A stretch of DNA of 59,269 bases. Origin: a virus. Taxonomy: Duplodnaviria; Caudoviricetes. A model generated the notes under the pieces. The model worked only from the letters and a program-made list of their open reading frames with translations. It was not told the DNA's origin and did no database searches. The DNA is taken from positions 1 through 59,269 of the IMG/VR virus record IMGVR_UViG_3300010052_000141; one strand, given 5' to 3'. Positions 39,473 to 39,585 of this stretch are shown here, one piece after another (positions within the stretch are counted from its first letter, which is position 1; each line of letters opens with the position of its first letter). Position numbers and translations under genes: made by a program.

Positions 39473-39585
39473 GGCACGGCAGTCGAGGTACGGACAGGTG
39501 CGGCCTGACTAGGTGTGGATAGGCATGTCAAGGCAGGCGGGGCACGGCCCGTCGTGGTGAGGCCCGGCACGGCACGTTGTGGCAT
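39473..39585 (+). repeat. Non-coding GGY-NN pentamer array 2 (two guide-like blocks)
   Basis: GGCAC GGCA | GTCGA GGTAC GGACA GGTGC GGCCT GACTA GGTGT GGATA GGCAT GTCAA GGCA | GGCGG GGCAC GGCCC GTCGT GGTGA GGCCC GGCAC GGCAC GTTGT GGCAT. Confidence 0.9.

What the first reader, a model, noticed from the sequence alone, without database searches (positions are those of the whole stretch)
39536..39585. Guide block 4 decodes to a second site in the same tail gene (40004-40033)
NN string GG AC CC GT GA CC AC AC GT (AT) reads G-T-P-V-D/E-P-T-T-V. The sequence at 40004-40030 is GGC TCA CCG GTC GAT CCG ACA ACG ATT (GSPVDPTTI). Seven of nine match exactly, six of them consecutively, and both others match at one base (S>T, I>V). 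Both blocks of array 2 therefore point to one gene.
Basis: seen in the sequence. Interest (0 to 1): 0.87.

Follow-up and report, generated by a model that had tools for sequence, protein, structure and literature searches.

The report
VIPR guide aimed at rivals' tail gene
This stretch is one guide of a VIPR system (a CRISPR-like, phage-borne RNA-guided DNA silencer described in 2026), and its two-letter code spells perfectly a tail-fibre gene variant of closely related rival phages while missing the carrier's own copy by two letters.

Summary
Positions 39536-39585 are ten GGY-NN pentamers. Their first nine NN pairs match 40004-40029 in the downstream tail gene at 16 of 18 letters.

The class is already in print as VIPR (Vipr protein plus vrRNA, one-letter-skip rule; bioRxiv 10.64898/2026.04.26.720920). 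This scan has noted VIPR on other DNA many times, so this is a new member of a known kind.

What I add:
- **Perfect targets exist in rival phages.** The exact nine-unit pattern has 4 hits in IMG/VR. Three lie at the homologous site of homologous tail genes.
- **The decoded peptide is the commonest family allele.** GTPVDPTTV occurs in 44 of 120 tail homologues. The carrier's own GSPVDPTTI occurs once.
- **Chance is excluded for the rival match.** None of 5000 reorderings of the guide reached 18/18.
- **Only the published rule works.** Of 20 register-and-skip combinations, only the NN register with a one-letter skip gives the match.
- **The locus has the other VIPR parts.** There is a Cas7-like fold, a conserved partner gene, and 5-nt arrays beside most of 80 homologous genes.

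The likely real target is the rival allele. The self site is its mismatched homologue. Block 3 points to the same gene family, but only at peptide level. Expression and silencing are untested.

The parts
38034..38786 (+). vipr: 250-aa Cas7/RAMP-like protein, the presumed guide-binding protomer
   Evidence: PHROG 4652, unknown function, E 1.6e-10. AlphaFold model has pLDDT 87. Foldseek top PDB hits are Csm3/Cas7 chains, E about 1e-4. 80 IMG/VR homologues were kept, most with 5-nt arrays beside them.
38797..38915 (+). vrRNA array 1 (GGY-NN pentamers; block 1 at 38806-38859)
   Evidence: GG spacing of 5 nt and a top period-5 signal. The first seven units of block 1 match the homologous ejection-gene site of rival locus L085 at 13/14, against 12/14 in the carrier's own gene.
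38942..39463 (+). vap-like accessory gene (173 aa) between the two arrays
   Evidence: tblastn finds a homologue beside vipr in 66 of 82 loci (L001-L082) at E<=1e-3, 60 of them at E<1e-6. AlphaFold pLDDT is 89. No solved-structure match was found.
39473..39590 (+). vrRNA array 2: short leader units, block 3, a 4-nt punctuation unit (GGCA at 39532-39535), then block 4
   Evidence: Sequence and GG spacing. The punctuation motif recurs at distances of 4+5n in related arrays.
39482..39531 (+). Guide block 3 (NN = GA AC CA GC CT TA GT TA AT AA)
   Evidence: Best own-genome hit is 14/20. It matches L083 at 16/18 and L086 at 15/18. The decoded peptide occurs in 4 of 120 tail homologues at the homologous site.
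39536..39585 (+). Guide block 4, the finding (NN = GG AC CC GT GA CC AC AC GT AT; units 1-9 at 39536-39580 carry the match)
   Evidence: It matches L083, L085 and L086 at 18/18. Only the NN register with a 1-nt skip gives this.
39600..39636 (+). GC-rich hairpin with flanking A and T runs, a likely intrinsic terminator closing the cassette
   Evidence: Hairpin 39600-39627 found by the terminator scan, which listed it on the minus strand; the plus strand carries the same stem followed by a T run. It forms in the RNA fold of 39530-39635, z = -4.2.
39692..40663 (+). Tail (fibre-type) gene of the carrier; a gene caller's start corresponds to 39752
   Evidence: PHROG 8763 tail protein, E 1.9e-44. 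1386 homologues at E<=1e-5.
40004..40029 (+). Own-gene homologue of the block 4 target (GSPVDPTTI), 16 of 18 NN letters
40148..40173 (+). Own-gene homologue of the block 3 target (DCQALFIYI), 14 of 18 NN letters

Best explanation
Positions 39536-39585 are the last guide of a VIPR locus carried by a complete 59-kb provirus. The locus runs vipr, array 1, vap-like gene, array 2, terminator.

By analogy with the published SUSP1 and P. fulva systems, the array is transcribed and cut into guides. Vipr protomers bind each GGY triplet and expose the NN pairs. The filament then pairs with double-stranded DNA, skipping every third base, and blocks transcription.

Nine NN pairs of this guide spell GG-AC-CC-GT-GA-CC-AC-AC-GT. 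Read as codon positions 1 and 2, that is G-T-P-V-D/E-P-T-T-V. This exact string stands in the tail-fibre gene of closely related phages that lack vipr. The carrier's own gene reads G-S-P-V-D-P-T-T-I, which is two NN mismatches.

The guide is therefore most likely a weapon against sister phages that compete for the same host. The own-gene hit is the diverged homologue of the true target and is probably spared.

Shown here: the array anatomy, the family association, the Cas7-like fold, the skip rule, and the perfect matches in rivals. Inferred: transcription, processing, binding, silencing, and tolerance of the own site.
For: 1. **Published class.** GGY/NN vrRNAs, the 1-nt skip at the wobble base, and competing phages as targets are described in bioRxiv 10.64898/2026.04.26.720920. 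I read its Results, Discussion and Methods sections 20, 26 and 27.
2. **Arrays accompany the gene.** 80 IMG/VR loci encoding homologues of the 250-aa protein were kept. Most show a strong period-5 G signal within about 1.5 kb of the gene: 78 of the 82 loci L001-L082 exceed the 2.0 threshold somewhere in the locus, and the eight I printed are NN-GGC arrays of up to 1.4 kb. GGC columns are conserved and NN columns carry about 0 bits.
3. **Fold.** The model has pLDDT 87. The top Foldseek PDB hits are Csm3/Cas7, type VII Cas7 and Cas7-11, with 21 hits at E<=1e-3.
4. **Exact hits in IMG/VR.** The nine-unit pattern gives 4 hits. Three (L083, L085, L086) are at the homologous site of tail genes 58-65% identical to the carrier's. 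The fourth (L084) is not a homologue.
5. **Reordering control.** 0 of 5000 reorderings of the guide reach 18/18 in any of the three loci; the maximum is 16.
6. **Register and skip control.** Of 20 combinations, only the NN register with a 1-nt skip gives 18/18; the others give <=16.
7. **Allele frequencies.** GTPV[DE]PTTV occurs in 44 of 120 top tail homologues, and the carrier's own allele in 1 of 120.
8. **Nearest relatives are the targets.** In a tree built without the guide columns, the carrier sits in a supported 5-row clade. Two of its members, P0004 and P0006, are perfect peptide-level targets for both block 4 and block 3.
9. **Rivals lack vipr.** The three rival records have no Vipr homologue. 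One is a complete 57.9-kb phage, syntenic with the window in the tail module. Only 1 of 80 tail-homologue loci has a Vipr-like gene within 6 kb.
Against: - **No expression data.** No RNA run was listed, so transcription and guide ends are unknown.
- **Units 10 and 11 do not fit.** AT and CA do not match the rival genes, so the guide's true length is assumed.
- **Possible self-binding.** The own site is 16/18 (89%). That passes the >=80% NN threshold the discovery paper uses to call targets. That paper found no self hits at that level in its clades. Self-binding therefore cannot be excluded, and mismatch tolerance is not given in the text I read.
- **Hits are not independent.** The target peptide is the commonest allele of a conserved motif, so the 44 homologues and 3 loci share ancestry.
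- **No sign of directed escape.** Differences between the carrier and P0004 at the two footprints (2/9 and 3/9 residues) do not exceed their overall 25% divergence.
- **Background hits exist.** The exact pattern also occurs 28 times in 596 Gb of representative genomes, and none of these is in a tail homologue.
- **Ecology is untested.** Hosts of the rival phages are unknown, so co-occurrence has not been checked.
Confidence: 0.8

Rival explanations
1. Self-regulation. The guide binds the carrier's own tail gene at 40004-40029 despite two mismatches. This damps or times late-gene expression, for example by keeping tail genes silent in the lysogen.
For: The own site is 16/18 (89%), or 18/22 with 11 units. 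That is above the >=80% cut-off used to call natural targets in the discovery paper. It lies about 420 nt downstream of the guide, in the next gene. Block 1 also has a 16/20 own-genome match.
Against: Perfect 18/18 matches exist in rival alleles, whereas a self-regulator should stay matched to its own gene. All three guides examined fit a rival better than self: 18 against 16 of 18 for block 4, 16 against 14 of 18 for block 3 in L083, and 18 against 16 of 20 for block 1 in L085. The published systems showed no self hits at >=80%. A later preprint reports self-match scores below non-self scores as a way to avoid autoimmunity.
Confidence: 0.12
2. Chance. The NN string is a real guide, or merely spacer sequence, and its resemblance to the tail gene is a coincidence found by looking at many blocks, lengths and strands.
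For: The self match alone is modest: P=0.0027 for 9 units and 0.065 for 10 units, before correcting for about four blocks and several lengths. Block 3's self match is at the null mean. Exact hits do arise by chance in large collections: 28 unrelated hits in genome contigs and 1 in IMG/VR.
Against: Three of the 4 exact IMG/VR hits fall at the homologous codons of homologous genes. None of 5000 reorderings reach 18/18. Only 1 of 20 register-and-skip combinations works. A second guide (block 3) and a third (block 1) land on homologous sites of the same rival lineage.
Confidence: 0.03
3. The array is not a guide RNA. Instead it is a DNA-level or structural element, such as a protein-binding repeat, a G-quadruplex tract, or a TRAP-like RNA site for a ring protein.
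For: GG runs with 3-nt loops could form two-tetrad quadruplexes. Blocks of about 10-11 triplets resemble TRAP sites. This was my own first idea, before I found the literature.
Against: The NN columns are hypervariable, yet they spell real coding sequence of rival genes under one specific register and skip. The partner protein has a Cas7-like fold. The architecture is the one described for VIPR.
Confidence: 0.03

Closest known systems
VIPR systems (Vipr + vrRNA + vap), bioRxiv 10.64898/2026.04.26.720920; type II of Escherichia phage SUSP1 and a Pseudomonas fulva prophage are the tested examples
   Same: A phage-borne lone Cas7/RAMP-like protein, tandem GGY-NN pentamers with hypervariable NN, and a small accessory gene. 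Targets are read with a one-base skip that falls on the codon wobble position, and they lie in competing phages.
   Different: - The protein is 250 aa, against the roughly 20 kDa stated in the paper.
- tblastn against 50,697 phage records found only actinophage relatives and no Escherichia phage.
- No invariant 3' tail or pseudoknot separates the guides. Blocks abut and are separated by a 4-nt unit.
- The accessory protein has no recognisable fold.
- The carrier's own genome holds a >=80% match, which the paper did not see in its clades.
- I could not see the paper's tables, so I cannot say whether this clade is among its 664-667 systems or which type it belongs to.
Staggered vrRNA arrays (legend of fig. 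S18 of the same preprint)
   Same: Guides follow each other without spacers or tails, and the end of one marks the start of the next. Here the GGCAGGC punctuation recurs at 4+5n nt, with peaks at 49, 54 and 59.
   Different: Only the figure legend was readable. The figure itself, and whether it shows this clade, were not visible. RNA ends are unknown here.
Self versus non-self discrimination by guide mismatch in VIPR (bioRxiv 10.64898/2026.10.15.759431, section 8)
   Same: Guides score lower against the carrier's own homologous sequence than against the rival's. This is read as avoidance of autoimmunity.
   Different: That case concerns guides aimed at rivals' vrRNA loci and vipr genes in SUSP1-like phages. 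Here the targets are virion genes (tail fibre, ejection protein), and the discrimination rests on amino-acid replacements.
CRISPR type III/I Cas7 backbone filaments
   Same: An RRM-based Cas7 fold. One protomer binds per repeat step of the guide, with periodic unpaired positions.
   Different: There is no CRISPR repeat-spacer array, no other cas genes in the cassette, and no known acquisition machinery. The guide has 5-nt periodicity with only 2 of every 5 letters used.

Membership tests
VIPR system | Vipr protein with a RAMP/Cas7-like fold | tested here: met
   The AlphaFold model from 43 sequences has pLDDT 87.1 and pTM 0.82. Foldseek against the PDB gives 21 hits at E<=1e-3, with Csm3/Cas7 of type III-A, type VII Cas7 and Cas7-11 at the top (E about 1e-4, TM 0.32-0.47). 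G-loop and thumb elements were not mapped residue by residue.
VIPR system | Tandem pentamers with conserved GGY and hypervariable NN next to the gene | tested here: met
   The two arrays give the strongest period-5 G signal in the window. 78 of the 82 loci L001-L082 exceed the period-5 threshold. The information content is high at GGC columns and near zero at NN columns.
VIPR system | Targets follow the one-nucleotide-skip rule, with the skip at the codon wobble position | tested here: met
   Of 5 registers x 4 skip lengths, only the NN register with skip 1 gives 18/18 for block 4 in L083, L085 and L086. All three hits are in frame with the tail gene.
VIPR system | Guides of 9-16 repeat units | tested here: inconclusive
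   Distances between punctuation marks imply mostly 7-12 units per block. Block 4 has 9 matching units out of 10-11. RNA ends are not known.
VIPR system | Conserved accessory gene (vap) in the locus | tested here: met
   Homologues of the 173-aa ORF lie beside vipr in 66 of 82 loci at E<=1e-3. Its fold is unassigned, so a DNA-interacting role is not shown.
VIPR system | Encoded by a phage or provirus | tested here: met
   The window is a provirus record rated 100% complete. It carries head, tail and packaging genes.
VIPR system | vrRNA is expressed and forms a ribonucleoprotein with Vipr | not testable with these tools
   No RNA run was listed. A terminator-like hairpin closes the cassette.
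VIPR system | Guide-programmed binding of double-stranded DNA and transcriptional silencing | not testable with these tools
   This needs binding or reporter assays.
VIPR type II (SUSP1 clade) | Each guide ends in an invariant structured 3' tail (pseudoknot) | tested here: not met
   Blocks abut through a 4-nt unit with no invariant tail between them. Only the last block is followed by a hairpin, and that hairpin looks like a terminator.

The most novel reading that the evidence does not exclude
This provirus uses VIPR as a kin-discriminating weapon aimed at the virion genes of its closest sister phages. At least three guides hit homologous sites in the sister lineage: block 1 on the ejection gene, and blocks 3 and 4 on the tail-fibre gene. 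Each guide spares the carrier by 2-4 NN mismatches. Because the wobble base is skipped, those mismatches can arise only through amino-acid replacements.

If this is true, two NN mismatches are enough for self-tolerance. VIPR would then impose diversifying selection on phage structural proteins, a pressure on tail-fibre evolution unrelated to host receptors.
Probability: 0.45. Interest if true: 0.55.

Novelty: new member of a known kind. Interest (0 to 1): 0.35.

Why it matters
This gives a clean natural guide-target pair in a Vipr clade far from the tested E. coli and Pseudomonas systems, and so confirms the one-letter-skip rule independently from sequence alone.

It also supplies a natural triplet of sites that would measure VIPR mismatch tolerance directly: the perfect rival allele, the two-mismatch self allele, and unrelated sequence. 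That quantity is not given in the paper text I could read.

Finally, it suggests that structural genes of sister phages are a VIPR target class. A carrier can then hold an >=80% match to its own guide, which matters for how self-targeting filters are set in VIPR target prediction.

Tried and rejected
- **TRAP-like ring site, G-quadruplex, DNA-level repeat.** These were my first ideas. I dropped them once the family association, the fold and the coding-register match were seen.
- **Rfam.** At gathering thresholds it found only two tRNAs in the window.
- **Tandem Repeats Finder.** It did not report the arrays as 5-nt repeats.
- **blastn of 37900-40700 against phage records.** No match.
- **Pfam.** No family for vipr, the 173-aa ORF or the tail gene.
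- **RNA evidence.** No RNA holder was listed.
- **Exact DNA target for block 3.**
  - 2 IMG/VR and 11 metagenome hits, none in a tail gene.
  - A variant pattern with the other leucine codon family gave 0 IMG/VR hits.
  - The perfect block 3 target therefore rests on four protein sequences whose DNA I could not fetch.
- **Co-variation test.** I asked whether other VIPR carriers with this tail gene avoid their own allele. It was not possible: none of loci L001-L082 holds the N-terminal part of this tail gene.
- **Evidence of directed escape at the footprints.** Not found, because divergence there equals the gene-wide level.
- **Fold of the 173-aa partner.** Foldseek's best hit had E 0.2. VIA wide's best was Z 4.3, on a helical hairpin only.
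- **Correction of my own note.** An early notebook entry said the 173-aa ORF is found in only 2 loci. That was wrong, and one search corrected it.
- **Paper supplements.** Supplementary tables of the VIPR papers were not opened. They may list this clade, its type and its targets.

Full report
**What is at the coordinates.** Window 39536-39585 is ten 5-nt units, each a GGY-type triplet followed by two variable letters.

The stretch is the second half of an array at 39473-39590. A similar array lies at 38797-38915. Together they hold the strongest 5-nt G periodicity in the 59-kb window. The layout on the plus strand is:
- a 250-aa ORF at 38034-38786;
- array 1;
- a 173-aa ORF at 38942-39463;
- array 2;
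- a GC-rich hairpin with a T run at 39600-39636;
- a tail gene at 39692-40663 (PHROG 8763, E 1.9e-44).

The window is a provirus record rated complete.

**The self match.** Read as NNx, the first nine pairs match 40004-40029 at 16 of 18 letters (G-S-P-V-D-P-T-T-I against the decoded G-T-P-V-D/E-P-T-T-V). This is the best hit in the window, and the runner-up is 14/18.

Reordering the guide's own units against the real window reached 16/18 in 8 of 3000 trials. The same test gave P=0.065 for ten units (16/20) and P=0.0033 for eleven units (18/22). With about four blocks and a free choice of length, this is suggestive only. Block 3's best own-genome hit (14/20, tied with an unrelated site) is at the null mean.

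**What the thing is.** A literature search led to the VIPR preprints. I read the following:
- Discovery paper, bioRxiv 10.64898/2026.04.26.720920: Results, Discussion, Methods sections 20, 26 and 27, and passages found by term.
- Cryo-EM paper, 10.64898/2026.04.26.720927: abstract and passages.
- Competition paper, 10.64898/2026.10.15.759431: abstract, sections 8 and 17, and passages.
- Language-model survey, 10.64898/2026.10.21.760802: passages.

VIPR is a lone ancestral RAMP protein (Vipr) plus vrRNAs made of 9-16 YNNGG repeats. The NN letters pair with double-stranded DNA while every third base, usually the wobble base, is skipped. Natural targets are competing phages and satellites.

**Membership tests on this locus.**
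- The 250-aa protein models well (pLDDT 87). Its best solved-structure matches are Csm3/Cas7 chains of type III-A, type VII Cas7 and Cas7-11, with 21 hits at E<=1e-3.
- 80 IMG/VR homologues of the gene were kept out of 101 confirmed. Of the 82 loci L001-L082, 78 exceed the period-5 threshold. The eight I printed are NN-GGC arrays, some longer than 1.4 kb.
- GGC columns are conserved and NN columns carry almost no information. Blocks are separated by a 4-nt unit at distances of 4+5n nt, peaking at 49, 54 and 59. This fits the 'staggered arrays' of the paper's fig. S18 legend.
- The 173-aa ORF is a conserved neighbour in 66 of 82 loci. That makes it the vap of this clade. Its fold matched nothing solved.

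In IMG/VR it has four exact hits. Three of them (L083, L085, L086) sit at the homologous codons of tail genes 58-65% identical to the carrier's, in the context ...SIGASSSGGGG-TPVDPTTV-FSTG.... The fourth (L084) is not a homologue.

The controls agree:
- None of 5000 reorderings of the guide reached 18/18 in any of the three loci; the maximum was 16.
- Across five registers and four skip lengths, only the NN register with a one-base skip gave 18/18. The other 19 combinations stayed at or below 16. This repeats the published skip-rule result on an unrelated clade.
- In 596 Gb of representative genomes the pattern has 28 exact hits, none of them in a tail homologue. That marks the chance background.

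**Distribution of the target allele.** Among the 120 best of 1386 tail homologues, the decoded peptide GTPV[DE]PTTV stands at the aligned site in 44. The carrier's own GSPVDPTTI occurs once. Twenty of the 29 closest homologues carry the perfect peptide.

All residues in the peptide come from codon families fixed in their first two bases, so a peptide match implies an NN match.

Among 80 IMG/VR tail-homologue loci, the DNA match for block 4 is 18/18 in 3, 17/18 in 3 and 16/18 in 12.

**Block 3 and block 1.** Block 3 decodes to D/E-T-Q/H-A-L-Y-V-Y-I/M. That peptide stands at the homologous site in 4 of 120 homologues (P0004, P0006, P0021, P0088). Three of the four also carry the block 4 peptide.

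At DNA level, block 3 reaches:
- 16/18 in L083 (0 of 5000 reorderings);
- 15/18 in L086 (2 of 5000);
- 13/18 in L085 (not significant).

No exact DNA hit for block 3 lies in a tail gene: 0 of 13 exact hits, and 0 hits with the other leucine codons.

The first seven units of block 1 match the homologous ejection-gene site of L085 at 13/14, against 12/14 in the carrier's own gene. Over ten full units the figures are 18/20 against 16/20.

**Who the rivals are.** I built a FastTree tree of 113 of the 120 tail proteins. Seven rows under 280 aa were dropped, and the two guide footprints were removed from the alignment. In that tree the carrier falls in a supported five-row clade with P0004, P0006, P0023 and P0047. 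P0004 and P0006 are the two full-length proteins that are perfect for both guides.

The three IMG/VR rival records have no Vipr homologue. One is a complete 57.9-kb phage with terminal repeats, syntenic with the window across the ejection and tail genes. Only 1 of 80 tail-homologue loci has a distant Vipr-like gene within 6 kb.

**Reading.** The guide's cognate target is the sister-lineage allele.

Whether two mismatches protect the own gene is not known. The site exceeds the >=80% cut-off the discovery paper uses to call targets, and that paper saw no self hits at that level.

The footprints are no more diverged between the carrier and P0004 than the rest of the gene: 2/9 and 3/9 residues against 25% overall. 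I therefore do not claim directed escape.

Expression, processing and silencing are inferred from the published systems. No RNA run was listed.

**Standing.** The class is in print, and this scan has met it on other DNA many times. This is a well-supported new member with a clear natural target.

Noticed in passing
window 38806-38859 and 33045-33077; L085 about 14076 (minus strand): Guide block 1 fits the homologous ejection-gene site of the rival phage L085 (DYAMPLINTQI) better than the carrier's own site (EYARPFIDLQV): 18/20 against 16/20 over ten full units. The 4-nt unit inside block 1 still seems to take up one codon step.
   Followed up: partly
window 38942-39463: The 173-aa ORF between the arrays is conserved beside vipr in 66 of 82 related loci. 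It models confidently (pLDDT 89) but has no solved-structure match. It is a vap candidate with an unassigned fold.
   Followed up: partly
L131 (Gordonia phage Pipp, locus about 3120-3400) and L132 (Mycobacterium phage Donkeykong, locus about 1980-2370): Distant homologues of the 250-aa protein in named actinophages (27-30% identity) sit beside strong GGC-NN pentamer arrays. Those arrays overlap stretches annotated as hypothetical protein genes: gene 43 in Pipp and gene 48 in Donkeykong. These 'genes' are probably guide arrays.
   Followed up: partly
L029 3970-5377; L065 3462-6358: Some relatives carry very long arrays: 1.4 kb in L029 and about 2.9 kb in pieces in L065. They use different punctuation motifs (GGCGGGC, GGCGGTC) from the GGCAGGC seen in the window's clade.
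   Followed up: no
window 38790-38808 and 39473-39488; L001 and L002 array starts: Arrays begin with a similar short leader (GGCAC GGC then a 4-nt unit) in the window and in L001 and L002. This may be a conserved start or processing signal.
   Followed up: no
L146 4494-5054: One tail-homologue locus has a distant Vipr-like gene (28% identity) about 1 kb upstream of its tail gene. It could be a second carrier with this tail family.
   Followed up: no
window 12471-12545 and 21383-21458: The provirus carries two tRNA genes, Thr(TGT) and Gln(TTG).
   Followed up: no
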